This document shows, one piece after another, positions 5,715 through 63,358 of a stretch of 64,000 nt of DNA. Within the stretch, counting starts at the first letter, position 1; the number at the start of each line of letters is the position of its first letter. The notes below the pieces were generated by a model. It was not told the origin of the DNA. It saw nothing but the letters and a program-made list of their open reading frames with translations, and did not search any database. The position numbers were made by a program, and so were the translations under genes. This DNA comes from Eledone cirrhosa (lineage: Eukaryota): positions 252,526,001-252,590,000 of the forward strand of contig OZ024740.1 in assembly GCA_964016885.1 (NCBI GenBank). The letters run 5' to 3'.

Positions 5715-6390
5715 TACATACATATATGTATACAGACGTACAGTAGTATGGATATATATATATATATACATACATGCACACATATATATATGTACGTATG
5801 GATTCACCAAACATTTATTATAATGCTCTGTGTGTTTGTAAACAAACATCCCGTATTAAGCCGCAGTGTCTAGCAACCACCGTTGTTCGTTTGTTCAACA
5901 CTGACAAAGGAACGCTGTACTATTTTCAAGCTTGTCAGCAACGTATACCTTCCTGCCAGATTGTTGAACGTCCGAAAGTATATACTTTCCTTATGCATAT
6001 TAACGGCTGAGTAGCCCAATTTGCATATCGGCCGGGTGCACCGTAAAGTATATACTTTCGGACGTTCAACAATCTGGCAGGAAGGTATACGTTGCTGATG
6101 ATAGCTAACAAGCTTGAAACTAGTACAGCGTTCCTTTGTCAGTGTTGAATAAATGAGCAACGGTGGTTGCTAGACACTGCGGCTTAATACGGGATGTTTG
6201 TTTACAAACACACGGAGCATTATAATAAATGTTTGGTGAATCCATACGTACACATGTGTGCATGTATGAATATATATATACATACTACTGGACGTCTGTA
6301 TACATATAGGTATGTACGTGTACATACTTATATTTACGTAACAGCCGTACTAAGAGTGGGAAATGAAATTTCTTTTCATTTTTTCCGTTT
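5715..6390. mobile_element. Retrozyme-like non-coding element, fold-back copy (arms ~5715-6030 and ~6045-6390)
   Basis: Arms are reverse complements; the same unit occurs at 12786, 41396 and 59110; HHR intact in the right arm, core partly deleted in the left arm. Confidence 0.8.
6090..6130 (+). ncRNA. Minimal type I hammerhead ribozyme
   Basis: CGTTG CTGATGA TAGCT-AAC-AAGCTT GAAA CTAG TA CAGCG; palindromic stem III. Confidence 0.85.
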
Positions 6391-11500: not shown

Positions 11501-11639
11501 AGCTCACGATGGAGATGACGAAGGACCGTGACAAGTGGAGAGATGCTGTGCTGAATAAGACCCGTCCCAGCCTTGCAACCAGGGAAGAGCGGACGTAAAA
11601 TGATGATGAATGATGATGATGATGAATGATGATGATGAT
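8600..11639 (+). mobile_element. RTE LINE, near full ORF, frameshifted, (TGA/TGAA)n tail
   Basis: APE (ISAYAPQ, AGDFNGHVG), RT (QFGFVPGKSTTDA, HADDLV), PHD-like finger, C-terminal RLRWYGHVMR. Confidence 0.92.
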
Positions 11640-12785: not shown

Positions 12786-13435
12786 AAGGAAAAAAATGAA
12801 ACGAAATTTCATTTCCCACTCTTAGTACGGCTGTTACTTAAATATAAGTATGTATACGTACATACATATATGTATACAGACGTACAGTAGTATGTATATA
12901 TATATATACATACATGCACACATATATATATGTACATATGGATTCACCGAACATTTATTATGATGCTCGGTGTGTTTGTAAACAAACATCCCAAATTAAG
13001 CCGTACAGTGTCTAGTAACCATCGTTGCTCATTTGTTCAACACTGAGAAAGGAACACTGTACTAGTTTCAAGCTTATTAGCTATCGTCAGCAACGTATAC
13101 CTTCCCGCCAGATGGTTGAACGTCTGAAAGTATATACTTTCCTTATGCATATTAACGGCTGAGCAGCCTAATTTCCATATCGAGTGAATTAATCGGCTGG
13201 GGTACCGAAAACGATAAACGGAAAAAATAAAACGAAATTTCATTTCTCACTCTTAGTACGGCTGTTACTTAAATATAAGTATGTATACGTATATACATAT
13301 ATGTATACAGAGGTACAGTAGTATGTATATATATACATACATGCACGCATATATATATATGTATGTATGGATTCACCGAACATTTATTATAATGCTCGGT
13401 GTGTTTGTAAACAAACATCCCGAATTAAGCCGTAC
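12786..13435 (-). mobile_element. Retrozyme-like element, ~1.5-mer partial tandem (period ~431 bp); HHR at 13055-13095
   Basis: Direct repeat at 12811 and 13242; CGTTG CTGACGA TAGCTAATAAGCTT GAAA CTAG TA CAGTG. Confidence 0.8.
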
Positions 13436-18300: not shown

Positions 18301-19046
18301 CAGACTAGAGAGAAACGAAGCTTGCATGCTCCGCTGGATGTGTAATAGTAATATACGTGAACGACAAAGCATAAACGAACTAAGAAAAAAATTAGAAATA
18401 AGAGGGATCAGATGTTGTTTACTAGAGAGAAGGCTACGTTGGTATGGTCACGTGATGCGCATGAAGGACGATAGCTGTATAACAAAATGCAGGGCAATAA
18501 AGATAGACAGTAGCCACGGAATAGGCAGACCCAGAAAAACCTGAGACGAGCTGATAAACTCCGACCTCACACACTTACACCTCACCAAGACAATGTCACT
18601 GGACCGAGACCTTTGGCGGTACTAAGTAATAGAGAAGACCCGCCTTACCTAAATACAAAGTAAAACCTACTACAGTCAGTAGGCATCTCTAACAAAATAC
18701 ACCCCCGTCCCCCCACCCCATCCACACCGCCCCCTTCTATGTAAAGTTATGTTGGTGCCACACCATCCAGGCCGAAACAAATGAGATCGTGTAGGTGTCA
18801 CGACAAAAAAACACACTGTCCACGCTGTAATGTGGCCGTGTAGGCAACACGGTAAAAACCTCCCAGACCCACACTGTAAATGTGGTTGGTGTTAGGAAGG
18901 GCATCCAACTGTAGAAAACCTGCCAGACAGTCCTATGCGAGCAAGACAATCACTCTTGCCTCAAGTGGGAAAACCCCCGTCCAAACCCATGCAAGCGTGG
19001 AACACGGACGTTAAACGTTGATGATGATGATGATGATGATGATGAT
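15362..19046 (+). mobile_element. Near full-length RTE LINE (5' UTR, APE-RT-PHD ORF with a few frameshifts, 3' UTR, (GAT)n tail)
   Basis: [52 protein letters not shown]; tail at 19019-19046. Confidence 0.95.
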
Positions 19047-24684: not shown

Positions 24685-27420
24685 ACGTGGGAAAGTGAAA
24701 AATCGGAGAATAGACCGTTAAAACATGTTTATTTAAAATATCACCTATGTACGTTTCGCCCAGTTGGGCTTCTCAAGGGCATAAACAATCACAAGTGTTC
24801 CTTATATAGTTCGGAAAGAGTTTTGGGGGTTAAATCCACATCAAGATTCATTGCTCGCAAAAATATCTTGTTTTGATTTTGCAGCAGGTCAAGGGAGGTA
24901 ACTTTGGCCGGTGTTAGGGCAGTCCTTCCCGGATAATTTTTGGTATGCAAGGATTGTTTTCTGGGTGTTATTTTGCTGCGCCTGCCCGCCGGGGTGTTAA
25001 GACTTGTTGCAGGGAGATCCAGTGTGCTATTTCACTCTTCATTCTTAACCCATCTAAAGAAGGATATTTTTAAGCGATGTGTACAACTTATCGCTGTTTC
25101 AGCTCTGCTGTTGATGAGCTCGTGGGGTGCAGTTATGATGTGGTAGAGCTCCACGAGGCAAAGAACGCATTTCCTCTTGAAGTTGTACGGTGCAGCCCTG
25201 TCGACAATCTCCCAGTGCGTGGAGAAGCTAATGTTTAAGTCCTTTAGTGATGTGATGTAGTCCGCGAGCGAGGTGGAGTGCCTTAGTTTTCTATTTGTGA
25301 AAGAGTGGAGATGTGTTCGAAACCTAATTTTGAACGGGCCGGAGGTGGCCCCTATATAATGTTTAACGCTATTGTGGCTAGTAATAGTGCATCTATATAT
25401 AACCCTATCGGTCAAGCAGTATCCTCTAAGGGGCACCGTCTTCTGTCGCGGCAGTTGCAATTTCTGTCGCTGTTCCGTCTATTTCCCACGATAAGGCTAT
25501 CATTGTTGCTGCCTACGTTGCTAGCTGTGCTACCGCAGCTGTCGTTAGCACAATTACAGCCCACAGCACGCGGGATGGTGCGATTGTTATTCTGCACGCC
25601 ATGTTTTGCATGCTCCCCAGTCACTTCGCGGTCATTCTGGTTGCGTCTGCGGATGCCGTTGCCAACACTATTGGATGCTGTCAGGGAGTTGTTAAGGCCG
25701 ATACAGTTATTGTCAGGTGTAGGTGCATCTGCGTCGAGGTGCTGTGTCTTGGTGATCTTACTGTGGTTCGTTGTTCCTATGATGTCTGCTAGGTTAGGAG
25801 TAGTAGAGAAGGATATTTTTATATTGTTCCTATTAAGAATTTTTCTATACCTATGGTTGGGTGGGAAGTTCTTCTCTAAGGCTTCGAAGAATATCCGGGG
25901 TATGTTGGAGGCCACACTTCGAGAGTAGGGGGGGGTGGAACCATAGGACGTTACGGTGGCGATTACGTGTCCTTGTACTTTTGCTACGGGTGGTTCCATC
26001 TAAGTGATTGCTCATATGTGTGTTAATGCGCTGTCGCCCGTTCGGTGCCCCTTTCACTTTATGCTCGGGTGCACTCTTTCTACCACTTCCGTGTTTATGT
26101 ACACGAAGATGTTGGTTGGAAGGCGACAGCGCATTAACACACATATGCACACTCCTAGCCTAGCAGACATCATAGGAACAACGAACCACAGTAAGATCAC
26201 CAAGACACAGCACCTCGACGCAGACGCACCTACACCTGACAATAACTGTATCGGCCTTAACAACTCCCTGACAGCATCCAATAGTGTTGGCAACGGCATC
26301 CGCAGACGCAACCAGAATGACCGCGAAGTGACTGGGGAGCATGCAAAACATGGCGTGCGGAATAACAATCGCACCATCCCGCGTGCTGTGGGCTGTAATT
26401 GTGCTAACGACAGCTGCGGTAGCACAGCTAGCAACGTAGGCAGCAACAATGATAGCCTTATCGTGGGAAATAGACGGAACAGCGACAGAAATTGCAACTG
26501 CCGCGACAGAAGACGGTGCCCCTTAGAGGATACTGCTTGACCGATAGGGTTATATATAGATGCACTATTACTAGCCACAATAGCGTTAAACATTATATAG
26601 GGGCCACCTCCGGCCCGTTCAAAATTAGGTTTTGAACACATCTCCACTCTTTCACAAATAGAAAACTAAGGCACTCCACCTCGCTCGCGGACTACATCAC
26701 ATCACTAAAGGACTTAAACATTAGCTTCTCCATGCACTGGGAGATTGTCGACAGGGCTGCACCGTACAACTTCAAGAGGAAATGCGATCTTTGCCTCATG
26801 GAGCTCTACCACATCATAACTGCACCCCACGAGCTCATCAACAGCAGAGCTGAAACAGCGATAAGTTGTACACATCGCTTAAAAATATCCTTCTTTAGAT
26901 GGGTTAAGAATGAAGAGTGAAATAGCACACTGGATCTCCCTGCAACAAGTCTTAACACCCCGGCGGGTAGGCGCAGCAAAATAACACCCAGAAAACAATC
27001 CTTGCATACCAAAAATTATCCGGGAAGGACTGCCCTAACACCGGCCAAAGTTACCTCCCTTGACCTGCTGCAAAATCAAAACAAGATATTTTTGCGAGCA
27101 ATGAATCTTGATGTGGATTTAACCCCCAAAACTATTTCCGAACTATATAAGGAACACTTGTGATTGTTTATGCCCTTGAGAAGCCCAACTGGGCGAAACG
27201 TACGTAGGTGATATTTTAAATAAACATGTTTTAACGGTCTATTCTCCGATTTTTCACTTTCCCACGTGCTTACGCTCTGCTAACTCTCTAGCCCACTAAA
27301 TATTAACACTTCGAATATTTAATACTGCCGGCACTAGTATCGAGCACCTTTGGCATACGCTACTTGGCAAATAACTATATGTATCACCTATCCCTCCTTT
27401 TTTTCTCTCTTTCTCGATAC
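24685..27420. mobile_element. Naiad-type PLE as a ~1.1 kb inverted repeat (24685-25801 minus, 26151-27267 plus; plus tail runs to ~27420)
   Basis: Near-identical GIY-YIG peptides on both strands (VIYRC..HYIGATS; CxLCLxE; CTHR). Confidence 0.92.
27171..27210 (+). ncRNA. Hammerhead, U3-A8 variant (mirror copy at 24742-24781, minus)
   Basis: TTGAGAA GCCC-AACT-GGGC GAAA CGTACG TA GG; stem I short; AATAAA follows. Confidence 0.65.
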
Positions 27421-37275: not shown

Positions 37276-37540
37276 TACCTGGAGTTGCGACCGATAGATA
37301 GTATTAGCAATTGGAAAGACCAACGGAAACATTGTTCCCTCGGTCCGATTTGACGAAAGTCGATCGTTCCTATATATTATATAATATTTAGTGTTTTAAA
37401 CTCAAAAAGTCATTTACAATTAATTAGCTCAAAGAAAGAAGCATTTCTGAGCCGTGAAATACAAGTTAATATATGAAAAACACATAAGTGTTTTTATTGC
37501 AAAAGACGAAGTTAGCTACAATGAAATAAACTAATTAAAA

Positions 37541-38042
37541 TAAATATAGTTTGTCTGTCTCGATATAATTCAATAAAAACAAACCTATATTGGCAAAAGC
37601 CGTGATTCCTGGACAAATTTAAATTTCAAAATCCAAACCTGCTCCGTAGATGAATTTGAACTTCAAAACCTAAATATGTTTCGCAACGATGGTATAAAAA
37701 GTGAAATATTCAAATCTTCTGTGCTTATCAACAGGAATCCAGAAAAATTAGGACATTTCACCTCCAATAAATTTTGTAGGACTGGTTCACAAGTACAAAC
37801 GCACGAGGTACACAGCTCACTAGCTATCTCATACTCACAGTGCTAGAAATAACAGCCCTTTATATGGGATTAAAAATTAAAAATTTTATACCATCGTTGC
37901 GAAACATATTTAGGTTTTGAAGTTCAAATTCATCTACGGAGCAGGTTTGGATTTTGAAATTTAAATTTGTCCAGGAATCACGGCTTTTGCCAATATAGGT
38001 TTGTTTTTATTGATTTATATTGAGACAGACAAACTATATTTA
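37541..38042. repeat. ~160-bp inverted repeat (37541-37700 and 37884-38042), probable PLE pLTR fold-back
   Basis: Arms nearly identical; minus strand reads CCTG TTGATAA GCA..TGC GAAA CATA TT TAGG (HHR-like). Confidence 0.75.
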
Positions 38043-41000
38043 TTTTAAATAAATATCTTTAAGTCGTTTGGAAGCCTCGACAATGCAAATGGGTAAATCT
38101 CCGGGTAACAAGATCCGGTGGTGGAGAGAGAGATAGATGTAAGTGGGTGTACGTTGAGATGCGTGGTGTGTAAAAATGTGTAAATGTGTAGAAGAAAGAA
38201 GGGAAGAGTATAAAGGATAAAATAAAAATAACAACACAAGAGAGAGTTACCTTGGGAGAGATTTAATAGTCCCTATATATTTCGGATTCACATCCATCAA
38301 CTGGGGTTTTTTTTCCGGGGTAAAGGTTGTCTGTCGGACAGGTGCGAAATGCGTCCTCCGCTGTTTGTTGTTTTGAATATCTGAGGTATTCGGCAGAGCG
38401 CGCGTGCGCGTGAAATGGGGTCGGTCGGGCAGAGGTCAGCGGCCGAATGAGGGAGTGGGGTGGCGCTAGTTGTCAGTCCATTCTCTGCCTGTTTGTTAAA
38501 TGTTACTGTGTGTGTGTGTTGTTGTCTCGCTTGAGTGTGTGTGTGTGTGTGCGTGTGTAGTTGCCTTGTTCCTCTGTATTGGCAGTGTAGTATGTTCGTA
38601 TGGTGGAATGCTACTGTGTGTGTGTGTGTGTAGTTGTCTCGTTTGTGTGTGCGTGTGTTGTGTGTTGCTACATCGTTTGTTAACTTAAACCAGCCATCTC
38701 ATTTCGCTTCTCTCTCATCGGTTGTTTATTTGCGGTTGCAGGCGTTTGATAAAAAGTGCTTCCTTGATACGTAACGTGCCGACGTTTCTTTCAGTCGCTA
38801 GAATTGTGACAATGGGCCTTCCGTCTTTGTTTCCGCATTTGTCTATGTGTTTCCGGAAAGACGAGGCCCTGGTTTTAGTGTGTTCCTTGATCCGGATGTG
38901 CAAAGGTCGGATTGTGCTACCTATGTAGTATTGGTTGCACCTGTCACATTCTATCTTATACACGACGTATGTGTGTAGGCAACAGTTCGCATGGCGTATC
39001 GGTCAGTCTCTGAGGGAGCATGCGTCAGTAGATTTCCCGGGTTTCTTGGAGAGGCATCTTCGCAGGGAGGGGCCTGAGTGGGCCAGGTGGATGTCGAGGC
39101 CCTCCCTCCGTATAGCCTTGCGGATAGCGTTGGTGGTATTCTCGCCCAGGTGTGGCATTTTAAGGAAGCACTTGCCTTGGGCGCCTCTCTGTCTCTTGTG
39201 TCTGGTGTCTCCTATTCTGTCTGTGATCGAGGTAGGGTACCCGTTCGTCTCCAGCACCTCGAGGAATCGCTTGGTATGAGTGACACCACTCGCGGGTTCG
39301 CTGCATCTGTTTTTGATTCGCGCGATCTCGTTCGTGATGTATCCTCTTTTGGCACTGTTAGGGAGGGTGGACTTGTAGTGAACGAACAGGTCCCTGCAGG
39401 CTGCCTTTCGGTAGAAGTTGCAGTGGATCCTTCCCTGTTCCGTGATGTTGATTCGGAAGTCGAGGAGGGCAAGTGACCCGTCTTCGTTGGGGTGTTCAAC
39501 ACTGAAGTTAATGTTCTCGTCCGTGTTGTTGAACGTCTCATAGATTCTGTTCGCCGTGTCTTGGGAAGATGTGAGGATGAGGATATCGTCCACGTACCTT
39601 GAGAAAAAGGCTACAGCGTTGGGGTGGCAGTCGTTGAGTGCCTTGCGTTCGAGGTTGTCCATGTAAGAGATCGCTAGCACACCTGATAGGCTTGATCCCA
39701 TGGGCAATCCCGAGGTTTGTTGGCATGTTTGGTCAAGGAATCCGAAGTAGGTGTTGTCGACGACGATGGATAGGAGTTGGTGGATATCAGTGGTGGTGAG
39801 CCCGAAGCAGTGTAAGTCGGTGGATTGGACGCGTTCCATCAGTATATTGACGGCCGGGAGTGCCGGGACCGAGGTGTAGAGAACGACTACATCAAGGCTG
39901 AAGGCATATCTGTTATTCCTTCTGGTGTCGGGATCCATTTGATGCAGGCGCTTCAACACCTCTTCGGAGCTGTTAACGTGTCCCGGCAAGGTGTCTAAGA
40001 AGGGTTTGAGTATTCTGGCTAGGAGCCATAAAATTTTGTAGAGTGGTCCCTCCACGCTCGATACGATGGGCCTGATCTTCAGGTCGGGTCCCTGTTTGTG
40101 CGTTTTCACGAGGTGGTAGATTGCGGGTAGTCTGCTGTTGCTCGTGAGGAGGTTGTATCTCAGGTTCTTCGGGAGCTTCCGCCGGTCGCAGATGTTGGTC
40201 CAGGCGGCGTTGATGTGCTCTCTGTTGATGACGCAGAATTCTTTTCCCTTATCGGAGGGGAGATAGATGTGGTTCTTCGATTTTAGGTTGGAGAGTGTGG
40301 TGAGTTGAGATTTGGTGAGGTTATGTGTTGTGCGTGTGTGTTTGTGAAGTATATCCGAGATGGAGTGTTTTAGCCTGATGAGTTTAGTGTCGAGTTCGTG
40401 GTTGGTGGGTGGGGGGTGGAGTGGGTTGTCGGGGTGGTAAGTGGGGAACTTGGGGTGGGTTGCGTGGGGGCTGTTATTTTCTGTGGCGCTGTTGATGGCG
40501 GTCACCCATTTAAGTTGGTAAGCGGCTCAACAAAAGTTGGCCTCGATGTTGAGTTTGAGTCTGTCGTCGAGACGTTGTGAGACGATGAACTTGGGTCCGA
40601 GGCGTAGGAGTTTCAGCTCGTCGCTCGTGAGAGTGCAGGTTAGGTCGATGACCAGGTGCGTCGCATCGTTGAGGTATGGCTCGGTGTTGGTGGATGCGGC
40701 GGTGGCGGTTGTTAAGTTGTTGTTTCCGACGTGGTTCTGGTCCGTCTGTTCGTTAGTGTCGATGTTCTCGTCGTGGAGTTTAGACAAGATCCACTCATAT
40801 TTTCGCTTGAGCTGTTTTTTCTCGTATTGGACTCTGGAGTGGTAGCACTGGTCGATTGCTTTAGTGATTTTCAGGAGCAAGTCCCCAGGTGCTATTGGCA
40901 GTCGATGTGTCCGCTCTGAGAGTGTCCGCTTATGGACGTGTAATTGGTGGTTGAGATGTCTCAGGATCTGTTTAATACACATGCGATGTATGCGGTTAGT

Positions 41001-41395: not shown

Positions 41396-41972
41396 AGAAC
41401 AGCCTGATTTATGCATAAATCAGGCTGTCCGTTTGTTTACAAACGAACAAAGCGAACGTTATAATAAATGTTCGCTAAACTAATACGTACATATATATAT
41501 ATATATGTGTGCCTGTATGTATATATATATATATATATATATACATGCTACTGTACGTCTGTATACATATGTGTATGTACGTATACATACATACTTACAT
41601 TTAAGTAAGTGCCGTACTAAGAGTGAGAAATGAAATTTCATTTCATTCTATTCCATTTATCGTTTTCGGTGTGCCTGGCCGACTCAACTCACTCGATATG
41701 CATATTAGGCTGCTCAGCCGTTAATTTTCATAAGGAAAGTATATACTTTCGAACGTTCAACCATCTGGCAGAAGGGTATACGGTGCTGACGATAGCTAAC
41801 AAGCTTGAAACTCGTACATCGTTCCTGTGTCAGTGTTGAACAAAAAAGGTGACGTGGTTGCCTTAACACCGTACGGCATAAATCAGGCTGTCCATTTGTT
41901 TACAAACGAACACAGCGAACGTTATAATAAATGTTCGCTAAACTGATACATACATATATATATGTGTGCCTG

Positions 41973-42133: not shown

Positions 42134-42658
42134 ACCCGCCTTACCTAAATACAAAGTAAAAACCTACTACAGTCAGTAGGCATCTCTATCAAAACACCCC
42201 CCCGTCCCACCACCTCCACCCCATCCACACCGCCCCTTTCAATGTAAAGTTATGTTGGTCCCACAACATCCAGGCCGAAACAAATGAGATCGTGTAGGTG
42301 TCACGACAAAAAAACACACAGTCCACGCTGTAAATGTGGCCGTGTAGGCAACACGGTAAAAACCTCCCAGCCCCACACTGTAAATGTGGTTGGTGTTAGG
42401 AAGGGCATCCAGCTGTAGAAAACCCGCTAGACAGTCCACGCTGTAATGTGGCCGTGTAGGCAACACGGTAAAAACCTCCCAGCCCCACACTGTAAATGTG
42501 GTTGGTGTTAGGAAGGGCATCCAACTGTAGAAAACCCGCCAGAGAGTCCTATGCGAGCAAGACAACCACTCTTGCCTCAAGTGGGAAAACCCCCGTCCAA
42601 ACCCATGCAAGCGTGGAACACGGACGCTAAACCTGATGATGATGATGATGATGATGAT
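42134..42658 (+). mobile_element. RTE 3' UTR insertion with ~113-bp internal duplication and (GAT)n tail
   Basis: Matches 18640-19046; unit repeated at ~42319 and ~42432. Confidence 0.9.
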
Positions 42659-43995: not shown

Positions 43996-44137
43996 AATAT
44001 ATATATATATACATGGCTTAGTTCGAATCTAGCTGTCGAAACAGCTGGAACTCAGCCGTCGGCGTCCCAACTCTTTTCCTATATTTGTATATCTATATAT
44101 AGAAAGCATGTATATTTAGAAAACAGTGAGTGGAATT

Positions 44138-44184
44138 TGAAAATTGAATTAGGTCTCACCGTAACTTTGACTAAATTTAATAGT

Positions 44185-44240
<56 letters not shown>

Positions 44241-44800
44241 ATGTTGAAAAGGTGACACGCCGGAGAGAGATGTACAGTGCGCTATCAGGAAAACAGGGAC
44301 GGGACCACCAGTGTGTGGAATCTGTAACCTGTGAAAGGCGGACTATGGACGCGATAATTGGGAATGTGGATTGGAGCATAAATGAATACCTTTGTAACTA
44401 TATAGTTATAAAGGTATTTATTTAAGCTTTAATTTGTATTTTTAATTGTCGTGTCTGTGGTCTGCCTTTCATAGGTTGTAGATTCCATGCACTGGTGTTT
44501 TTTTCACTGTGTGTCTCTCTCTGGTGTGTTGCCTTTTCAACATATTGTATTTTAAAGAGCTCAGGATTTCTTCTCCTTTGAGCACATTATTTACAGGGAA
44601 TAGCGAGGGCTTATGGCTCCGTCAATTTATCGTGATATATATATATATTTACACAGAGGTATCCACTGTAAGTTGGATATATATATATATATATATATAT
44701 ATACTTGCCCATCTTTTTTTGTTCTGTGGGTTTATATGTCCCATTATTATTAGACTGTTGAATTTAGTCAAAGTTACATTGAGACCTAATTCAATTTTCA
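44138..44800. repeat. 48-bp inverted repeat pair (44138-44185 and 44753-44800) enclosing hairpin 1
   Basis: tgaaaattgaattaggtctca..gtaactttgactaaatt and its reverse complement. Confidence 0.85.
44235..44549 (+). ncRNA. Long G.U-rich fold-back hairpin 1 (putative hairpin RNA or hyper-edited retrocopy)
   Basis: ~140 paired positions centred at ~44401; 29 G.T wobbles, 0 A.C, 1 transversion, one internal loop. Confidence 0.7.
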
Positions 44801-44813
44801 TATATATATATAT

Positions 44814-45137
44814 AAACAAGAAGTGTAAGTCAACAGGTTGAAGTTACCTTTGTTTATTCGTGGCCGCTGCTATGTGTATTTCAGTGATAAGCCATTGTTC
44901 AACTGCTATGGCCTCATCAGGCGGTGGGAACTTTAAGAGAAGAAACAGGAAAACATAATGTTGTAAGATTTTACCTTGTTAATCTATAACAACATTGTTT
45001 TCCTGTTTTTTTCTGTTCAAGTTCTTGCCGCCTGATGGGGCCATGGCAGTTGAGTAGTGACATATCACTTAAATGTATATGGCAGCGGCTGTGAATAAAC
45101 AAGGCTAATTTTGACCTGTTGACTTACACTTCTTATT
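44814..45137 (+). ncRNA. Long G.U-rich fold-back hairpin 2 built from an HHR-like PLE pLTR
   Basis: 116-nt aligned core: 19 G.T, 1 A.C, 3 transversions; CTGATGA..GAAA on the minus strand of the left arm, CTGATGG in the right arm; AATAAA. Confidence 0.7.
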
Positions 45138-45236
45138 TTTACATTATTCCGGAGTAAACAGACCCACCTGTGCACTTCGTTGAGTGTTCTAACCTGCATA
45201 CTGAAGTGTCGGTAAACAACCAACACATACTCAAAG

Positions 45237-45288
<52 letters not shown>

Positions 45289-45367
45289 ATAGGTATATAT
45301 ATGTATAGGTATATATATGTATATATATGTATATATATATGTATATGTATTTATATATATATATATG

Positions 45368-45405
<38 letters not shown>

Positions 45406-45453
45406 TGTATATATATATATGTATATGTGTGTGTATATATGTATATGTATATG

Positions 45454-45493
<40 letters not shown>

Positions 45494-45599
45494 TTTAGGT
45501 TATCAATAATGTAGTGATAATATATCGTTACGTTAGAGATGAACAGCGTACGTGCAGGTTTGCTCAACGAGTATAAATTATATTCCGGAGAAATGTAGA

Positions 45600-47286
45600 A
45601 AGGATGAATATAAAATGAAAGTGCTTTTGTTAAAAAAGGAATTTATTAGGTATTGACATATGTTTCTGTAACAGACCGAATACCTATGTATCGCTGCTTG
45701 CGTAATCATATAATGTTAGCAAGTATTCGATAGCAAATGTATAATCAGTTGTCACTTCTTCAGAGATTTTGGATAAACTGGATAAAATCAGAAAAATTGA
45801 AGTATTTATATTAGTAAAAGAGGAAGGAACAGAGGGGATAGAATATGACAGATGGTAAAATAATTTACTGCTAAACAAGTATATAATGGGTTTTTAATGA
45901 GAATACCATGAGTAAATCTAAATAAGAATTTTGGGAGTGCCAATTTTAATCTCTACCTGACCAACTGGACAGTGGACAGGGCTGGTCATTTGGTGCAGTA
46001 GTATTAATTATAAAGTGTCAATTGGGGAAGGGGGAGATTTCGATTGCTACTAAATAACATCAATGCTAGTAGCCAGCTGGTATATGCATTAGGGAATTGA
46101 ATCAAGAAATCAGAAATCTCATTTTATCTATAGCAGTTTGTATTAAAAGGTAAATAATAGAAGAGTTGATAGAATTAAGACTAATAAAGAATGTTCATAT
46201 CTATTTTGACAATCAAACGGGGATAGAGACAGGCGTTCAATCCTGGTAGTATTTATAATATGAAAATGTAGATTTTAAGCGATGGTTACAGTATAACGAT
46301 CGCTCTATTCTGTTATTTAATAAAATGTTTTTGGATTTCATAATACAAAATAATTCTACATTACATAATTTACAAAATTCCTGTCCATTGGTATACGGGG
46401 GGGCAGCCGCTATTATATCCCATTTTAGGTGAAATTGTTGGTTATTTTCACGCAGCTGCCAAACCTTGTCTGCGAGTCTTGTTACATAACGCTGGTTTTC
46501 ATGTTTTATCGAATAACGATGTCTATAAAGGCGTGATTTGAAGGAGGTGGCTGTAGATCCCACATAGTACCACTTCTGTCTATCCGATTCGATAGTACAT
46601 TTGTATACGATGTTACGTTCAAGACACTGATTGTTCAACGGACACATTCCTGGTTGGACACAGTTGCAATTATAATTTTGCGTTGTTGTATTGCCATGGA
46701 TGGGTTGATGAGGTTGCTTATGTAGGACAGGATGTTGTTTGTTGTTTTGTGATGTTATAGCTAATGTTTTACGTGTATTGTTATGTGTTGGAAGGCGTTT
46801 ATACAACCGTTTTGCGTTAAGCTTTTTTATATGTTGTTCAATATTAGGGGCGGTTGAATATGAAAGTCGAATAGTGTTAGGGTTTAAGATTTTATTATAT
46901 TTATGTGATGTTGGAAAGTGTTTTCTAACTAATCGAAAGAATTTTGAGGGTAGATTGGTTTTAATAGATTTGTTATAGACCGGGTTGTACCAGATATACT
47001 CCCTACATCGCCTTCTGTTTGGTGGTGTGCGACTATTATTGTGTCTATTGCGGTAGTGTATGTATGGTGGTGATTCTGTGCTATTTCTACTCCTATGTGA
47101 TTTATTTTGGGTGTTTTGGTGATCTTTGACTATATACTCTATATTATCTAGGTGACCGGCTTTCCTAAGTGCATCATCATAATACTCGGCATGTTCTTTG
47201 AAGGTTTGTTGGTTGGACGATAGGCGGGAGATTCTAAGAGAAACGTTTCTAGGGATGGATTTAATTATAGAGAGTGGATGGTTAGG
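45600..47286 (-). mobile_element. Naiad-type PLE, 5'-truncated (GIY-YIG plus tail)
   Basis: NHP, IWYNPVY, CNCVQPGMCPLNNQC, IVYKC..YVGST, CKLCNVE, CNHR. Confidence 0.9.
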
Positions 47287-47758
47287 CATCTCTAACAAAA
47301 CACACCCACGTCCCACCACCCCCACCCCATCCACACCGCCCCTTTCAATGTAAAGTTATGTTGGTGCCACAACATCCAGGCCGAAACAAATGAGATCGTG
47401 TAGGTGTCACGACAAAAAACACACAGTCCACGCTGTAATGTGGCCGTGTAGGCAACACGGTTAAAACCTCCCAGTCCCACACTGTAAATGTGGTTGGTGT
47501 TAGGAAGGGCATCCAGCTGTAGAAAACCCGCCAGACAGTCCACGCTGTAATGTGGCCAAGTAGGCAACACGGTAAAAACCTCCCAGCCCCACACTGTAAA
47601 TGTGGTTGGTGTTAGGAAGGGCATCCAGCTGTAGAAAACCAGCCAGACAGTCCTATGCGAGCAAGACAATCACTCTTGCCTCAAGTAGGAAAACCCCCGT
47701 CCAAACCCATGCAAGCGTGGAACACGGACGTTAAACGTTGATGATGATGATGATGATG
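47284..47758 (+). mobile_element. RTE 3' UTR with duplicated unit and (GAT)n tail
   Basis: Matches 42178-42658. Confidence 0.9.
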
Positions 47759-48047: not shown

Positions 48048-48365
48048 TTATGAAAATAAAACAAAGAACCCTTCAATACATCAAAAGTCTTTATTAGCCA
48101 ACAATGTTTCGTCCTATTAAGGACTCATCAGGGCAATCAAAACTACAAGAAGCACTATCGGCCAATACAAGCCTAAAACTCCGAAGAATATGGAGTGTAC
48201 ATACACTAAAGTATTGGAAGATTATCTTCCAATACTTTAGGCTTGTATTGGCCGATAGTGCTTCTTGTGGTTTTGATTGCCCTGATGAGTCCTTAATAGG
48301 ACGAAACATTGTTGGCTAATAAAGACTTTTGATGTATTGAAGGCTTCTTTGTTTTATTTTCATAA
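48048..48365. mobile_element. Palindromic solo pLTR with two divergent canonical hammerheads (+ core at 48282-48306)
   Basis: Arms 48048-48177 and 48236-48365 differ at 2 positions; ATTGCC CTGATGA GTCC-TTAATA-GGAC GAAA CATTG TT GGCTAATAAA. Confidence 0.85.
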
Positions 48366-48505
48366 TATTTTCATAATTCTTCGGCTCTGTTTAATTACAT
48401 TGAGCTATACCTTTTACTGTCATTTCTATAATACGAAGAGGGTGTTTAACTCCAACACGCTCCAGTATTTTAATCCTTACATATATATATATATGAATAT
48501 ATATG

Positions 48506-48593
<88 letters not shown>

Positions 48594-48614
48594 TATATAT
48601 GTATATATATATAC

Positions 48615-51082
48615 ATGGAAAGTTATATTTAAATTGTTGGGTTAACAACGAGTAAATATTTATAACTGATATAAAAGCACTCAACAAGTATTTGGAGTAT
48701 ATTTATGATATTAAATAAATGGAAACTATATTTATAAAACCATATTTATTTCGTTATATATATTTCAGGGATATCATATTAACAATATGTTATGCCATCT
48801 TCAGACAAAATACAATATAAACAGTCTTATAAATAAATAGATACGACATACCTTTCAATCACCTTGCATTTGGGAGGTTGATTTGGTAGTAAAAAATGTG
48901 GACAGTTGTAAAAAGAAAGAGATAAAGAGAGAAAGAAAGAGAAACGAAGAAAAAGAAGAAATGCATGTGACTAAATAGAGGGATATAGAAAGATAGATAA
49001 AGAGAAGAACTTCATGTAAAGAAACAGAGAGAAATATATATAGAGAGAGGAAAAAAGAAAGAGATAGAGAAATTAGGAAGTTGAGTATCGGTTGATACAT
49101 TTATTTATTTATTTATTTATTTATTTAGCTCTAGTATTAATGTAAAGAGAGATGTATGTAGTTAAGAGAGAAAATAGCCGTTATATAGAGAGAAAAAAGA
49201 GAGAATGAAAAAGAGAAAATGAAACACAACCAGACATAAACGATGCAGAATTTAAAACCGCTATGTTTTATCCGTAGAAAATATTAGTTCTTATAAAACA
49301 GGCATTATAATTTAAGTACCAGTATTCATGAATGAGACATGTATCTATAATGTGTGAAAAGTAATGATCTTATGTCTAGTTTTTAAAAATTCATATGTTT
49401 ATATCATAATTATAAACAAACTCCCAATTCACACGAAAACATTCTCATTGTGCTATAAAAATTCAAGTATACATATATGTGTGTATATATACACATATAT
49501 ATATAGAGTCTATATTAATTTTAACAATACTATTCTTGTCTTTATTCAACCTGATTGTCGATCAAGCAGAAATAGAAAACAGATTTCAATATATTAATAA
49601 AAATAAAAATAAAAATATCAGAGACAAGAAAATAAATAAATAAATAAATAAACAGAAAACTAAAACATTTAATATTAAAAATAAAAAATATTACAAAATA
49701 TTAAAAAATTAATACAAATAAAACACAGAGATCAGCCTTTCAAAGTTAATTGACAATATATTGCCAAGATCATCATAAGCATCAGAGTCGAAACAGATAA
49801 AACAAAAATTGTTTACCAAATCCTGTCTAGCAGAAATCATTCCAAAAGTTTAGGATACCCATTTGGTCTACATATGTTCTTATATATAATATAATATAGA
49901 AGTTTATCTAGTTTAAAATTTAATTCGATATATTTGGGGCATCAGCTTTTAGGGTTGTTTAATTATTCATGAAGAATGTTTTAATAAAAAGAATGTTTTA
50001 ATAAAAAGAAGAAATCGAAAGATTTATCGGCTAGTTTCATAACTAATTACAAATCAAATCAAAACAAACATAATTACATTGTAAATTTAAATTTATATTT
50101 AAACGTTGAGTTCAATCTATGTCTGCAGCAACTGAATAAATTTGTCCGTAGATTAAGGGAATTTTTAGATTTTAGTATAAAGAATATCTCCTCCGCACAG
50201 AGGTCACATGTCTCAGAGGATGAATTAAAAGGAATCCCCCTTGAAACTATATTCCAAGTCGTCGAATATCTAACGTTATCATGCCTAAGTCGCCAGAGTA
50301 CGCCTGATAGTGCTGTTGAAGATTTTTTGGATGGATCTGTGAAAGAATTCTTGTGGTTGTTATAGCGAAGTTTAAATTCCGTCGATGTAGAACCAACGTA
50401 GTTAAAAGAATTAACGTCCGTTTTAACATTACAGTTGTATATTATATTTTTAACTAAGCAGTTGTTATTTAACGGACATTTAGATCTATCTCTACAGTTA
50501 CATTTGTTAACTTGGATATTATTTATGCTATTATCGCTAGGTTTTAAGTTCCTGTTATTTATTCTATTAATATTTTACGCTAAATTTTTGGTGGATGAGT
50601 AGGTTAGTTTTATAGTATGTCTATTGAAAATTGAGTGATACCTATGTGTTCTAGGGAAGCGATTATCGAGAGCTTTAAAAAATAGTTTAGCAATGTGGGT
50701 TTTAATGTTTAGTGAGAAAGGGGGGGCAAACCATATTATATTCCTAGTTCTATTTCTTTTATGGCTTTTGGAATTATTGTAATGCTTTCTATTATAGTTG
50801 TTAAGGTTGTAGCCATAATTAAAATAGTTGTTATTTTGTTTAATTTGTTTATCATTATCTATGTACATAATTTTATCACTATATCCTGCTCTAGCTAACG
50901 CTTCATTGTAATAATGGGCTTTTTCGTCGAAAATCTTTTTATTAGATGAGATTCTAGAGATACGTGATTGAACAGAGTTTACTATAGTATTTTTAACAGA
51001 TTTGGGGTGGGTTTTTTCTCTATATATAACGGCTATTTTCTCTCTTAACTACATACATCTCTCTTTACATTAATACTAGAGC

Positions 51083-51113
<31 letters not shown>

Positions 51114-51499
51114 ATGTATCAACCGATACTCAACTTCCTAATTTCTCTATCTATCTCTTTTTTTTTTCCTCTCTCTATATATATTTCTCTCTGTTTCTTT
51201 ACATGAAGTTCTTCTCTTTATCTATCCTTCTATATCCCTCTATTTAGTCACATGCATTTCTTCTTTTTCTTCGTTTCTCTTTCTTTCTCTCTTTATCTCT
51301 TTCTTTTTACAACTGTCCACATTTTTTACTACCAAATCAACCTCCCAAATGCAAGGTGATTGAAAGGTATGTCGTATCTATTTATTTATAAGACTGTTTA
51401 TATTGTATTTTGTCTGAAGATGGCATAACATATTGTTAATATGATATCCCTGAAATATATATAACGAAATAAATATGGTTTTATAAATATAGTTTCCAT
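48615..51499 (-). mobile_element. Naiad-type PLE, 5'-truncated (48615-51011), with inverted pLTR (51012-51499)
   Basis: [14 protein letters not shown] as at 57016; 51012-51499 is the reverse complement of ~48719-49198. Confidence 0.9.
51408..51469 (+). ncRNA. Hammerhead with moderately extended stem II (copies at 48749-48810 and 61379-61440, minus)
   Basis: TTTTGT CTGAAGA TGG..CATATT-GTT-AATATG..CCCT GAAA TATATA TA ACGAAA, overlapping AATAAA. Confidence 0.75.
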
Positions 51500-54741: not shown

Positions 54742-56024
54742 CATCATCATCATCATCATCATCATCAACGTTTAACGTCCGTGTTCCACGCTTGCATGGG
54801 TTTGGACGGGGGTTTTCCCACTTGAGGCAAGAGTGGTTGTCTTGCTCGCATAGGACTGTCTGGCGGGTTTTCTACAGTTGGATGCCCTTCCTAACACCAA
54901 CCTCATTTACAGTGTGGGGCTGGGAGGTTTTTACCGTGTTGCCTACACGGCCACATTACAGCGTGGACTGTCTGGCGGGTTTTCTACAGCTGGATGCCCT
55001 TCCTAACACCAACCACATTTACAGTGTGGGGCTGGGAGGTTTTTACCGTGTTGCCTACACGGCCACATTTACAGCGTGGACTGTGTGTTTTTTGTCGTGA
55101 CACCTACACGATCTCATTTGTTTCGGCCTGGATGTTGTGGGACCAACATAACTTTACATTGAAAGGGGCGGTGTGGGTGGGGTGGAGGTGGTGGGACGGG
55201 GGTGTGTTTTGATAGAGATGCCTACTGACTGTAGTAGGTTTTTACTTTGTATTTAGGTAAGGCGGGTCTTCTCTATTACTGAGTACCGCCAAAGGTCTCG
55301 GTCCAGTGACATTGTCATGGAGAGGTGTAAGCGTGTGAGGTCAGAATTTATCAGCTCGTCTCATGTTTTTCTGGGTCTGCCTACTCCGTGGCTACCGTCT
55401 ATCTTTATTGCCCTGCACTTTGTTATACAGCTGTCGTCTGTCATGCGCATCACGTGACCGTACCAACGTAGCCTTCTCTCGAGTAAACAACATCTGATCC
55501 CTCTTATTTCTAATTTTTTCCTTAGTTCGTTTATGCTTTGCCGTTCACGTATATTACTATTACACATCCAGCGGAGCATGCAAGCTTCGTTCCTCTCTAG
55601 TCTGCGTATATCCTCTGCACACCATGCCCAGGTCTCACTGCCATGCAGCATTGCTGTTCGTATGCAGGCATCGTATAACCTGCCTTTCATTTTTAGGGAG
55701 AACCCTCTAGCGGCTAATAGTGGTATAAGCTCTCTGAACTTTTTCCATCCAGTTCTGACTCTAGCTACTGTACTTTCAGAGCACCCTCCCCCACTGCTGA
55801 TTTTGTCACCCAGATAACGGAAGCTGTCCACTATTTCTATAGAACCCTCTGCGCAGTTGAAGGAGCTAGTATTTTGTGGGCACTTGCTGCTACTTATTGC
55901 ACCAGAGCACCGGCCACATGTAAAATCTATGTTCTTAGTTAGCTTACCTGTGATCCCACTACATCTTTTATGCACCCATACTTTGCATTTGGGACATAAA
56001 ATGGAGTTTCTACCTACGCCTTTC
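54740..56024 (-). mobile_element. RTE LINE 3' portion
   Basis: ORF 55361..56026; 3' UTR with duplicated unit; (GAT)n. Confidence 0.92.
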
Positions 56025-59110: not shown

Positions 59111-59784
59111 AAGCGCCGCTAAACTGATACGTGCATATATGTATGTGTACCTGTATGCATATGTATATATATATGTATATATATATATATATATGTGCAT
59201 GCTACTGTACGTCTGTATACATATATGTATGTACGTATACATGCATACTTACATTTAAGTAAGTGCCATACTAAGAGTGAGAAATGAAATTTCGTTTTCA
59301 TTTTGTTTCAATTTATCGTTTTCGGTATGCCTGACCGATTTAACTCACTCAATATGAAAATTAGGCTGCTCAGCCGTTAATTTTCATAAGGAAAGTATAT
59401 ACTTTCGAACGTTCAACTATCTGGCAGATTGGTAAACGGTGCTGATGATAGCTAACAAGCTTGAAACTAATACATCGTTCCTGTGTCAGTGTTGAACAAA
59501 AAGGTGACGTGGTTGCCTTAACACCGTATGGCATAAATTCAGGCTGTTCAGTTTGTTTACAAACGAACAAAGCGACGTTATAATAAGCGCCGCTAAACTG
59601 ATACGTGCATATATGTATGTGTACCTGTATGCATATGTATATATATATGTATATATATATATATGTGCATGCTACTGTACGTCTGTATACATATATGTAT
59701 GTACGTATACATGCATACTTACATTTAAGTAAGTGCCATACTAAGAGTGAGAAATGAAATTTCGTTTTCATTTTGTTTCAATTT
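59110..59784 (+). mobile_element. Retrozyme-like element, ~1.4-mer (period ~474 bp); HHR at 59437-59477
   Basis: Repeat at 59110 and 59584; CGGTG CTGATGA TAGCTAACAAGCTT GAAA CTAA TA CATCG. Confidence 0.82.
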
Positions 59785-61349
<1,565 letters not shown>

Positions 61350-63358
61350 CGATATTAAACAAATGGAAACTATATTTATTTCGTTATATATATTTCTGGG
61401 ATATCATATTAAAAATATGTTATGCCTTCCTCAGACAAAATACAATACATAAGCTGTTTTATAAATAATTAGTGACATACCTTGTGATAATGCAACTTCC
61501 TTTTAAAAAGTTGATTTGGTAGTGAAACTGTTATGATAGTTATATAGAAAGAAAACGAAGATGAGAAGAAGAAGATGAAGAGATGTATGCAAATAAAAAA
61601 AGAAGATGAGATGTATGCAAAGAAAAACAACGGAGCGAGATAGAGAGACAAGGAGAGAGAGAAATACATTGATGGTGAAAAAACATAGTAAGCTGATCAA
61701 CGTATATGTGAGAGGTTAAGGGAAGGGATACAGTTAAATTAGTGTATAGGAGAAAAAGAAAGAAAGATGATATATTTAAAATATATTAAAAATATATTAT
61801 GTCTCATCCATTTGAATTATCAATTTTTATGAATTAGGTATTATAATGTAAATATCAGTATTCATGAATGAGACACATATCCATAATGTGTGAAAAAAAA
61901 AAAAAAAAAAAAATGACCACATGCTCAGTTAAAAATTCTTAGGTCTATAAGGAAAATCTGAGATAAAACTTCAAACATAAGTATATATGCATTCCCGTGA
62001 AAAAAGAGAAAAGAGAAGGTTATCTCAAATTCAAGTTGATAAATATAGACGCACATGTGAACCTACGTGATACGCTGCACTGATTCTTATATTTTATGAA
62101 AAACTTCAATGCGTTAGAAAAGATTCCACCCTACATACATTTACATACATATATACATATATATAGACACAAAACATATAAGATATACATTAACATCTAA
62201 AATAACATTCCAGCCTCACTTGCATGATCATCGATCAAGCATAGAGTAGACAACAGATATCAATATTAAAATTAAAAACGCCAAGAATATCTTCGTCACT
62301 CCACAGAGTATCTAGGGACGCAAGAGAACATAGTATGCCATGCATATCGGTCATAGAATCAGAGTCAAAAGCAAACAAAACCAAAATTGTTCATCAAGCC
62401 TTATTTAGCAGAAATCATTCAAAACTTATTCTACAAATGCTCTTATATTTATTATAGAAGTTTATCCAGCTTAAAAATGTATTCAAAAGATTGGGGACAA
62501 CGCCAATTATAGGGTAGTTTATTTAATCTCATTAATTTCATGCAGAAAGGTTTTTAAAAAAAAAAAATTTAAGGAATCGAAAGATTTATCGCCAAGTATC
62601 ACAAATAGTCAAATACCTTAAGTAAATATACTACATTTTATATTACATTTTAAATTTATATTTATATTTAAATGTTGAGTTCAATCTATGTCTGCAACAG
62701 CTGAATAAATTGGTTCGTAAATTAAGGGAATTTTTAGATTTTAATATAAAGAATATCTCCTCCGCGCAGAGGTCACAAGTCTCAGAAGAGGAATTAAAAG
62801 GAATCCCTTTTGAGACTATATTCCAAATCATCGAATATCCAACTTTATCATGCTTAAGTTGCCAGAGTAACCCTGACAGCAATGTTGAGGATTTTTTATT
62901 TGGATCCGTGAAAGAGTTTTTGTGATTATTATAGCGAAGTTTAAATTCTGTCGAGGTGGAACCAACATAATTAAAAGAATTTAAATCAGTTCTAACATTA
63001 CAGTTGTATATTATATTTTTAACTAAGCAATTGTTATTTAGCGGACATTTAGATCTATCTCTACAGTTACAGTTTTTTAGTTGAATATTGTTTAGGCTAT
63101 TTTCGGTATTTTGGCTAGGTTTTAGATTCCTATTATTTATTCTATTAATATTTTGTGCTAAATTTTTGGTGGACGAGTACGTTAATTTTATAGTATGTCT
63201 ATTAAAAATTGAGTGATACTTATGTGTTCTAGGGAAGCGTTTGTCAAGAGCATTAAAAAATAGTTTAGCGATGTGGGTTTTAATGTTTAGTGAGAAAGGG
63301 GGGGGCAAACCATATTATATTTCTAGTTCTATTTCTTTTCTGGTTTTTGAAATTATTG
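61350..63358 (-). mobile_element. Naiad-type PLE 3' portion (GIY-YIG plus tail with HHR)
   Basis: ORF 62643..63308 is a paralogue of 57016..57675. Confidence 0.9.

What the first reader, a model, noticed from the sequence alone, without database searches (positions are those of the whole stretch)
44010..45600. Multi-hairpin domain with one shared polarity: one edited transcript or a hairpin-RNA locus
Seen: besides hairpins 1 and 2 there is an enclosing 48-bp inverted repeat (44138-44185 / 44753-44800; 2 G.T, 1 A.C, 1 transversion), a small stem ctagctgt-cgaa-acagctgg (~44029-44048), and partial pairing of ~45137-45200 with ~45550-45600 (tcgttgagtg..aacctgcat against gtgcaggtt-tgctcaacga, again G.T). 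Unrelated sequences separated by (TA)n share the same strand bias. Inference: the ~1.6 kb block behaved as a single + strand RNA, either a retrocopied edited transcript or an anti-transposon hairpin locus.
Basis: inference. Interest (0 to 1): 0.7.

Follow-up and report, generated by a model that had tools for sequence, protein, structure and literature searches.

The report
RNA-edited transposon hairpins written into DNA
Two neighbouring mirror-image transposon fragments in this animal genome have about a quarter of their paired A's changed to G in the pattern of the RNA-editing enzyme ADAR, so an edited RNA was most likely copied back into the genome and left a heritable record of RNA editing.

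Summary
The two long hairpins are real. H1 (44235-44549) has 32 G.T, 0 A.C and 3 transversion mismatches in 147 pairs; H2 (44814-45138) has 20, 2 and 5 in 142. Reads of related copies show the direction: at 19 of the 52 G.T sites the family letter is A, and no partner T is listed as C (40 of 177 rows shown). The changed A's prefer a 5' T (33/74) and avoid a 5' G (1/23), the ADAR signature. So the skew is A-to-G editing of + strand RNA fixed in DNA, not selection for G.U pairs. Both hairpins are built like insertions of (TA)n-targeting Penelope-like elements: inverted arm, sense arm, tail; H2 carries a hammerhead-like core. Four other inverted repeats in the window are not hyper-edited, so one RNA covering H1 and H2 is likelier than two events. 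No parent locus or RNA could be tested. It works like ADAR-hypermutated avian retroviral RNA fixed in proviruses, here in a non-viral retroelement.

The parts
44012..44189 (+). Upstream piece between (TA)n runs; holds the small stem 44029-44048 and the left copy of the 48-bp repeat. Possibly a 5'-cut pLTR end with half a hammerhead core (inference). Whether it was in the edited RNA is open.
44138..44185 (+). Left copy of the outer 48-bp inverted repeat
44190..44236 (.). Pure (TA)n run, no G
44235..44400 (-). H1 left arm: inverted, tail-less copy of repeat family 1; 23 G's in G.T pairs; 19 nt (44280-44298) have no partner in the right arm
   Evidence: family reads also end at the matching place, 44550, in (TA)n (table 7)
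44403..44549 (+). H1 right arm: sense copy of family 1; 9 G's in G.T pairs, 7 of them shown as family A
44550..44635 (+). Family 1 unpaired tail, followed by (TA)n; very deep family coverage, no G>A row shown
   Evidence: tables 2, 3, 7
44753..44800 (-). Right copy of the outer 48-bp repeat; two G's, both with a 5' T; not covered by reads (tool skipped 44667-44824)
44814..44957 (-). H2 left arm: inverted, tail-less copy of family 2; 10 G's in G.T pairs; hammerhead-like core (CTGATGA ... GAAA) on the - strand from 44920
44995..45138 (+). H2 right arm: sense copy of family 2; 10 G's in G.T pairs; hammerhead-like core from 45032 whose last core A (45038) is G here and A in the family
45139..45237 (+). 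Family 2 unpaired tail; inferred 3' end and priming end of the copied RNA
   Evidence: family reads end at 45235 in (TA)n; no G>A row shown
45238..45489 (.). (TA)n array with 26 G and 0 C; not informative, since other arrays in the window are as skewed in either direction
45490..47355 (-). Separate minus-strand Penelope-like element (C-terminal endonuclease with Hydra-type CxCX5C and CxH motifs); its 3' end gives the distal 'pairing'. Not part of the edited unit.

Best explanation
H1 and H2 are 5'-truncated ends of two high-copy retroelement families, inserted in (TA)n in the usual Penelope-like form: inverted tail-less arm, sense arm, tail. H2 is probably a Hydra-clade pLTR; H1 is assigned by architecture only. 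At a parent locus the two lay side by side and were read through on the + strand. Each folded into a ~145-bp duplex; ADAR turned 52 of 194 paired A's into inosine on both arms; the H2 ribozyme was locked in the duplex and lost a core A. The RNA still ended in an intact family-2 tail, was reverse-transcribed (most simply by a Penelope-like RT acting in trans), I was read as G, and the copy entered the germline. Shown: arm asymmetry, A-to-G direction at 19 sites, 5' neighbour bias, repeat-family nature, architecture. Inferred: ADAR as the enzyme, one RNA for both hairpins, the RT used, a parent locus elsewhere. My confidence in 'ADAR-type RNA editing written back to DNA' alone is about 0.9; the figure below is for the full single-RNA retrocopy.
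For: 52 G.T against 2 A.C, G's on all four arms (23, 9, 10, 10). Family A at 19 of 52 sites, at 95% or more of X1 depth for 16 of them; X1 places by kind G>A 43, C>T 18, T>C 12, A>G 6 (G>A against C>T p 0.002). At most 9 of 52 partner T's can show C in even 3% of X1 depth (12 T>C places, 3 shown outside the arms). 5' neighbour T 33/74, A 12/64, C 6/33, G 1/23 (p 2e-5 for T, 0.01 for G), matching the metazoan ADAR preference in PMC9989829 (passages). No G>A row shown in the two unpaired tails. Architecture and (TA)n targeting match PMC8557442; Hydra-type motifs occur in several ORFs of the window; the H2 core aligns with the pLTR core at 48804 (2 of 300 shuffles as good) and lies 206 nt before (TA)n, against 200 and 191 for two others. 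Four other inverted repeats are not hyper-edited, so two adjacent same-strand events would be a coincidence.
Against: No parent locus or empty site seen; no genome held. 137 of 177 difference rows are hidden, among them 20 of X1's 43 G>A places, so some could lie in the tails; 33 of 52 G.T sites are unpolarised. The 3' G preference is weak (10/34 against 52/194 overall). The 5' G depletion is not significant in H2 alone (p 0.44). The outer repeat is edited far less (2/33) and the 47-nt (TA)n at 44190 holds no G, although both should lie in the RNA if the outer left arm did. No run holds the edited allele as such (best share of words 0.20; no spanning piece). Rfam did not call a hammerhead in H2 and the isolated core does not fold better than shuffles.
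Confidence: 0.62

Rival explanations
1. Two independent events: H1 and H2 were each edited in their own RNA and retrocopied separately into the same (TA)n cluster, by chance on the same strand.
For: Each unit is bounded by (TA)n and has its own tail. The outer repeat between and around them is barely edited. The internal (TA)n runs are pure.
Against: Hyper-edited copies look rare: 0 of 4 other inverted repeats in the window, and family reads carry A at 95% or more at most shown sites (biased, since differently edited copies may fall under 80% likeness). My rough odds are about 10 to 1 for one event (inference). Non-editing mismatches are similar in both (3 of 147, 7 of 142).
Confidence: 0.12
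2. In-place write-back: this locus itself was transcribed and edited, and its cDNA converted the locus by recombination or RNA-templated repair. No parent exists elsewhere.
For: Explains one polarity for both hairpins and pure flanks without a new insertion. Weak hint: in X1-X3 a part of the depth at 45070 does not carry the family G while all depth at 45075 carries A, as an unedited allele or parent would give (the remaining letter is not shown).
Against: Retroposition is the ordinary route for these elements, and PLEs are reported to mobilise other RNAs in trans (PMC8557442 passage). The same hint fits a parent elsewhere.
Confidence: 0.12
3. Assembly or library artefact, such as RNA-derived sequence merged into the contig.
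For: The edited allele was not recovered from other runs.
Against: A quarter of paired A's changed at once fits one molecule, not a read consensus (inference). The block is joined to ordinary repeat DNA on both sides. The sequencing artefact described in PMC2873906 (passages) gives G-to-A clusters, the opposite direction.
Confidence: 0.05
4. A functional hairpin-RNA (endo-siRNA) locus in which selection kept only changes that give G.U pairs.
For: Two gapless ~145-bp duplexes on the + strand, complementary to abundant repeats.
Against: Selection for pairing would keep C-to-T as well as A-to-G and would give compensatory changes; the shown sites are all A-to-G with a 5' neighbour bias. The arms are plain repeat copies. 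A present-day small-RNA output is not excluded, but it is not needed to explain the skew.
Confidence: 0.04
5. DNA-level deamination of C on the + strand (CpG decay or an AID/APOBEC-like enzyme on single-stranded cDNA).
For: 21 of 52 partner T's are followed by G, and 16 G sites lie in tandem TG/TG pairs that CpG decay could mimic. The 5800-6243 palindrome does show C-to-T G.T pairs.
Against: Family reads show A at the G, not C at the T, including tandem sites such as 44253/44254 with 44531/44530. The 36 non-tandem sites keep the 5' bias (T 17, A 12, C 6, G 1). CpG decay is strand-symmetric.
Confidence: 0.03

Closest known systems
ADAR hyper-editing of avian retroviral RNA fixed after reverse transcription (Hajjar & Linial 1995; Felder et al. 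1994; known to me only as summarised in PMC12925331, passages)
   Same: Clustered A-to-G in an inverted-repeat region, passed through reverse transcription into DNA.
   Different: There an exogenous retrovirus, up to nearly 50% of A's; here non-viral, non-LTR element ends in an animal genome assembly, two different families, 27% of paired A's.
APOBEC-edited LTR retrotransposons in vertebrate genomes (Knisbacher & Levanon, PMC4866542, passages)
   Same: A burst of one-way, strand-biased changes in a single integrated retroelement copy, polarised by family sequence.
   Different: G-to-A from C deamination of cDNA, not tied to hairpins, reported absent from 19 invertebrates; here A-to-G, in duplex arms, with ADAR context.
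Hyper-edited RNAs from inverted repeats (Porath et al., PMC4365171, passages; repeat-directed editing in coleoids, PMC9068888, passages)
   Same: dsRNA from nearby inverted repeat copies, dense A-to-G, G depleted 5' of the site.
   Different: Those are RNA-versus-DNA differences; here the changes stand in the DNA. The 3' G enrichment is weak here.
Penelope-like elements, Hydra clade (Craig et al., PMC8557442, passages and section 11)
   Same: Inverted 5'-truncated copy next to a sense copy, tail at one end only, (TA)n target, hammerhead in the pLTR; Hydra-type ORFs nearby.
   Different: H1 and H2 hold no ORF; tails are 86 and 99 nt against the 30-40 bp described; no editing is described in the passages read.
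Non-LTR retrozymes (bioRxiv 10.64898/2026.07.22.740005, part 1 of 5 read)
   Same: Non-coding, hammerhead-bearing, PLE-derived.
   Different: Retrozymes are tandem arrays with a ribozyme in each unit; here inverted pairs with damaged cores.

Membership tests
ADAR hyper-edited sequence | Clustered A-to-G on one strand, direction fixed by an unedited reference | tested here: met
   19 of 52 G.T sites shown as family A, none shown as family C at the T
ADAR hyper-edited sequence | 5' neighbour favours U/A and avoids G | tested here: met
   T 33/74, A 12/64, C 6/33, G 1/23; preference as in PMC9989829
ADAR hyper-edited sequence | 3' neighbour favours G | tested here: inconclusive
   G 10/34, T 21/60, A 16/67, C 5/33; described as weaker and less conserved in PMC9989829
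ADAR hyper-edited sequence | Confined to long duplex RNA | tested here: inconclusive
   No G>A row shown in the unpaired tails, one shown in the unpaired 19-nt bulge (44288); 20 of 43 X1 G>A places hidden
ADAR hyper-edited sequence | Inosine in RNA, dependent on ADAR | not testable with these tools
   Past event; no RNA run listed
Retrocopy | Unedited parent locus with the same block order, and an empty site in relatives | not testable with these tools
   No genome held; no spanning contig
Retrocopy | Target-site duplication | tested here: inconclusive
   Both ends lie in (TA)n, where duplications cannot be read
Penelope-like element end (pLTR), H2 | Inverted truncated copy beside a sense copy, tail at one end, (TA)n target | tested here: met
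   pattern in PMC8557442
Penelope-like element end (pLTR), H2 | Type I hammerhead in sense orientation | tested here: inconclusive
   Core motifs present and aligned with the pLTR at 48804 (2 of 300 shuffles); no Rfam call; fold not better than shuffles
Penelope-like element end (pLTR), H2 | Linked to an RT plus GIY-YIG ORF of its own family | not testable with these tools
   No ORF in the unit; no close copy of the family in the window
Penelope-like element end (pLTR), H1 | Same architecture | tested here: met
   Family reads end in (TA)n at 44550 (no tail) and 44648 (tail)
Penelope-like element end (pLTR), H1 | Hammerhead or similarity to a PLE end | tested here: not met
   No core found in H1; no significant alignment to the pLTR at 48620-49198 (168 of 300 shuffles as good). 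May lie outside the retained piece.
hpRNA / endo-siRNA locus | Phased 21-22 nt small RNAs from the duplex | not testable with these tools
   No small-RNA run listed
hpRNA / endo-siRNA locus | Pairing kept by selection (both routes to G.U, compensatory changes); feature recalled, not read | tested here: not met
   One-way A-to-G at all 19 polarised sites
APOBEC-edited retroelement | G-to-A on the sense strand (C-to-T on cDNA) | tested here: not met
   Window has G where the family has A
Non-LTR retrozyme | Head-to-tail tandem units, each with an intact hammerhead | tested here: not met
   Inverted pairs; no such tandem in 44010-45600

The most novel reading that the evidence does not exclude
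Because Penelope-like elements normally integrate as inverted repeats, their insertions are built-in ADAR substrates, and their RT regularly writes hyper-edited, multi-element read-through RNAs back into the germline. This block would be one of a genome-wide class of 'editing fossils': a route by which A-to-I editing becomes heritable mutation in an invertebrate, which also disables the element's ribozyme, and which records germline ADAR specificity without any RNA data. In its boldest form the write-back happened in place, by cDNA conversion of the transcribed locus.
Probability: 0.3. Interest if true: 0.8.

Novelty: new variant of a known kind. Interest (0 to 1): 0.6.

Why it matters
It is direct sequence evidence that an RNA edited by ADAR reached the genome. 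Inosine-rich RNA is usually seen only as a transient RNA-DNA difference; here it appears as inherited DNA, which implies editing and reverse transcription in the germline or early embryo. The test is cheap and general: count G.T against A.C mismatches between the arms of repeat-derived palindromes, then polarise with the family. That makes the question 'how often does RNA editing feed back into animal genomes' countable in any assembly. The single locus is probably functionless, which caps the score.

Tried and rejected
Whole-genome search for a parent locus: no genome held. Other copies of H1 or H2 in the window: none significant (best E 0.011, low-complexity). Sequencing runs: 6 listed, no RNA holder listed; this says nothing on expression. 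Rfam at gathering score: 0 matches in the window; at E-value level only generic miRNA-hairpin matches on H1 and H2, far below their thresholds, rejected. A strict hammerhead scan found no complete fold in H2. Long alignment of the H2 unit to the neighbouring minus-strand element's 3' end was not significant (score 78.5, shuffle maximum 92.5); only a 20-nt motif was (3 of 300). G-rich (TA)n at 45238-45489 as editing: rejected, many arrays are as skewed. An apparent age gap between H1 and H2 vanished once H1 was paired with family guidance. Pfam gave no family for 4 of 6 ORFs, including 46240-47355; its assignment rests on motifs and a weak match to the RVT_1 plus GIY-YIG ORF at 27895 (E 4e-5). 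Lineage: protein searches gave only distant aquatic-invertebrate names (Hydractinia 61%, Branchiostoma and Mercenaria 53%); my impression that the SINEs are octopus-like is recalled and untested, so no cephalopod claim is made. Look-ups of earlier findings by place, by one word set and by sequence were empty. Paper searches for a germline-fixed ADAR-edited non-LTR or Penelope retrocopy listed none by title or abstract start; the library lacks most subscription papers, and I read no supplements.
Full report
Setting. The window is repeat-packed animal DNA: (TA)n arrays, LINE-type RT ORFs and many Penelope-like ORF fragments. No whole genome is held. The lineage was not resolved; the nearest named proteins are from aquatic invertebrates at 53-61% identity.

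What is in the sequence. A self-comparison of the masked window found two long near-perfect palindromes in the stated range. With pairing guided by family reads, H1 (44235-44549) has 112 Watson-Crick pairs, 32 G.T, 0 A.C and 3 transversion mismatches in 147, plus a 19-nt piece of the left arm without partner; H2 (44814-45138) has 115, 20, 2 and 5 in 142. An unguided alignment gave nearly the same (31:0 and 20:3 including one end column). Ordinary DNA mutation gives G.T and A.C equally, so 52 to 2 is far outside chance (p 1.6e-13). The G's lie on all four arms (23, 9, 10, 10). The region 44110-45240 folds at -570.9 kcal/mol on + and -448.3 on -.

Controls. Palindromes at 5800-6243, 37532-38051 and 48061-48352 have 4, 1 and 1 G.T in their well-paired stems, and the 1.1-kb inverted repeat at 24689-27263 has 6 G.T, 2 A.C and 2 transversions, several at CpG. 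In the 5800 element, copies elsewhere in the window show C at two of the four T's, so those are ordinary C-to-T changes. Of all pairwise alignments of 60 nt or more in the window, only H1 passed a strict one-way cluster filter; H2 did not pass that filter.

Direction. A G.T mismatch can come from A-to-G or from C-to-T on the + strand. Four runs (three of one sample, one of another) were laid on 44237-45237 at 80% likeness. Both hairpins are pieces of high-copy families (summed contig depth about 1e5 near 44510-44610 and 7e4 near 45200 in X1). Of 177 difference rows, 40 were shown. Nineteen of the 52 G.T sites appear, all as window G, family A: 11 in H1 and 8 in H2, at 95% or more of X1 depth for 16 of them (73-94% for the other three; 44303 rests on one contig in each of two runs). 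No partner T appears as C. X1 has 12 T>C places in the whole stretch, 3 of them shown outside the arms, so at most 9 of 52 partner T's can carry C in even 3% of depth. By kind, G>A exceeds C>T in all four runs (43:18, 41:20, 44:19, 51:31; p 0.002 to 0.035; three of the four are one sample). Four further G>A rows are not G.T sites: 44288 in the unpaired bulge, and 44911, 44923 and 45088, where both arms differ from the family together, that is before the duplication. No G>A row is shown in the unpaired tails, but 20 of X1's 43 G>A places are hidden.

Context. Counting every paired A-position in the arms, the share changed depends on the 5' neighbour: T 33/74, A 12/64, C 6/33, G 1/23 (p 2e-5 for T, 0.01 for G). 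This is the preference reported for ADAR across metazoans (PMC9989829, passages; PMC4365171, passages). The 3' side shows no clear G preference (10/34), which those passages call the weaker feature. A C-to-T reading shows a CpG excess (21/32), because tandem TG/TG mismatches fit both readings; the reads settle it for A-to-G, and the 36 non-tandem sites keep the 5' bias.

What the hairpins are. Family reads end in (TA)n at 44550, 44648 and 45235. So each unit reads (TA)n, inverted tail-less arm, sense arm, tail, (TA)n, with sense on +. That is the insertion form described for Penelope-like elements, and the Hydra clade is described as inserting in (TA)n and carrying hammerheads, a DKT motif, a CxCX5C linker and CxH (PMC8557442, passages and section 11). 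These motifs occur in several ORFs here, including the minus-strand element at 46237-47355. The palindrome at 48061 has the same layout with a Rfam Hammerhead_1 match on each arm (E 3.7e-4, below gathering score) and is nearly unedited. H2 holds a CTGATGA ... GAAA core that aligns with the pLTR core at 48804 (2 of 300 shuffles) at a like distance from the 3' (TA)n (206 nt against 200 and 191). In the sense arm the last core A (45038) is one of the A-to-G sites. The hammerhead call for H2 stays tentative, and H1 shows no such core. The distal partner at 45490-45610 is the 3' end of the minus-strand element; it shares a short tail motif with family 2 (3 of 300 shuffles) and is not part of the edited unit.

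One RNA or two. Shown: both hairpins were edited as + strand RNA. Inferred: one molecule. Hyper-edited copies look rare (0 of 4 other inverted repeats; family reads nearly all A, with the caveat that differently edited copies may not lay at 80%). Given two neighbouring palindromes, a copy long enough to span both seems to me about ten times likelier than a second independent edited insertion on the same strand; this is a rough estimate. The copy then spans at least 44254-45113 and so includes the right copy of the outer repeat. If the left copy was in it too, the 48-bp helix should have formed; its two G's both have a 5' T, but only 2 of 33 positions changed (p 0.013 against H1+H2). A short helix split by a 2-nt internal loop may be a poor substrate (recalled knowledge), or the two copies may simply be paralogues that were never one duplex. 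The pure (TA)n at 44190 argues mildly against inclusion. In-place conversion by cDNA would give the same picture and cannot be told apart without the genome.

Mechanism. Step 1, two Penelope-type palindromic ends sit side by side in (TA)n (architecture shown). Step 2, read-through on + gives two ~145-bp duplexes (fold shown, transcription inferred). Step 3, ADAR deaminates 52 of 194 paired A's on both arms (pattern shown, enzyme inferred). Step 4, the duplex hides the family-2 ribozyme, so the long RNA survives with an intact 3' tail (inferred). Step 5, a Penelope-like RT primes at that tail and copies I as G into germline DNA (inferred; mobilisation of other RNAs in trans is mentioned in PMC8557442).

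Limits. The edited allele was not recovered from another run (best share of words 0.20; no spanning piece), so the block may be private to the assembled individual or species, and an artefact is not formally excluded.

Comparison. It works like the A-to-G hypermutated inverted repeat of avian retroviral RNA fixed by reverse transcription (as summarised in PMC12925331, passages; originals not read), and is the ADAR counterpart of APOBEC-edited LTR elements in vertebrate genomes (PMC4866542, passages). Six searches listed no paper on a genome-fixed ADAR-edited Penelope or other non-LTR copy; the library is partial. Two earlier notes of this scan report like cases in other genomes; they are unchecked, count as leads only, and suggest the kind recurs. 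Verdict: a real, well-supported editing fossil; new variant of a known kind; interest 0.6.

Noticed in passing
window 48061-48480: Palindromic unit with the same layout as H1/H2 and a type I hammerhead on each arm (Rfam E 3.7e-4); nearly unedited; its centre holds a second small inverted repeat.
   Followed up: partly
window 48614-51486 and 61350-61573: Hydra-type Penelope-like element with inverted pLTR copies; extended-stem hammerhead-like cores at 48804 (-), 51414 (+) and 61434 (-).
   Followed up: partly
window 24689-27263: 1,113-bp inverted repeat at 99.1% of a Penelope-like element with a 350-bp spacer; 6 G.T, 2 A.C, 2 transversions, several at CpG.
   Followed up: partly
window 5800-6243: Palindrome of a family with copies near 12941-13432, 41595-41937 and 59249-59774; its G.T pairs are mostly C-to-T by those copies.
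   Followed up: yes
window 37532-38051: Young palindrome with about 170-bp arms and a long unrelated centre; one G.T in the stem.
   Followed up: partly
window 44012-44065: Stem-loop (z about -2.6 to -3.1 for 44012-44137 on either strand) ending in a GAAA word; may be a 5'-cut hammerhead remnant of a third family.
   Followed up: partly
window 44864/45088, 44911/45041, 44923/45029: Three pairs where both H2 arms have G:C and the family has A:T; could be subfamily changes or an earlier round of editing before the duplication.
   Followed up: no
window 42318-42549, 47423-47653, 54853-55084: 112-nt tandem unit inside a SINE-like repeat ending in (ATG)n, attached to LINE 3' ends.
   Followed up: no
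window 10980-11564 against 55263-55847: Distant LINE copies with 77 G.T-type against 28 A.C-type differences at 63% identity; probably a compositional difference between families.
   Followed up: no
window 17127-18305: Best protein hit (74%) is labelled as from a bacterial metagenome bin, probably animal DNA in that bin.
   Followed up: no
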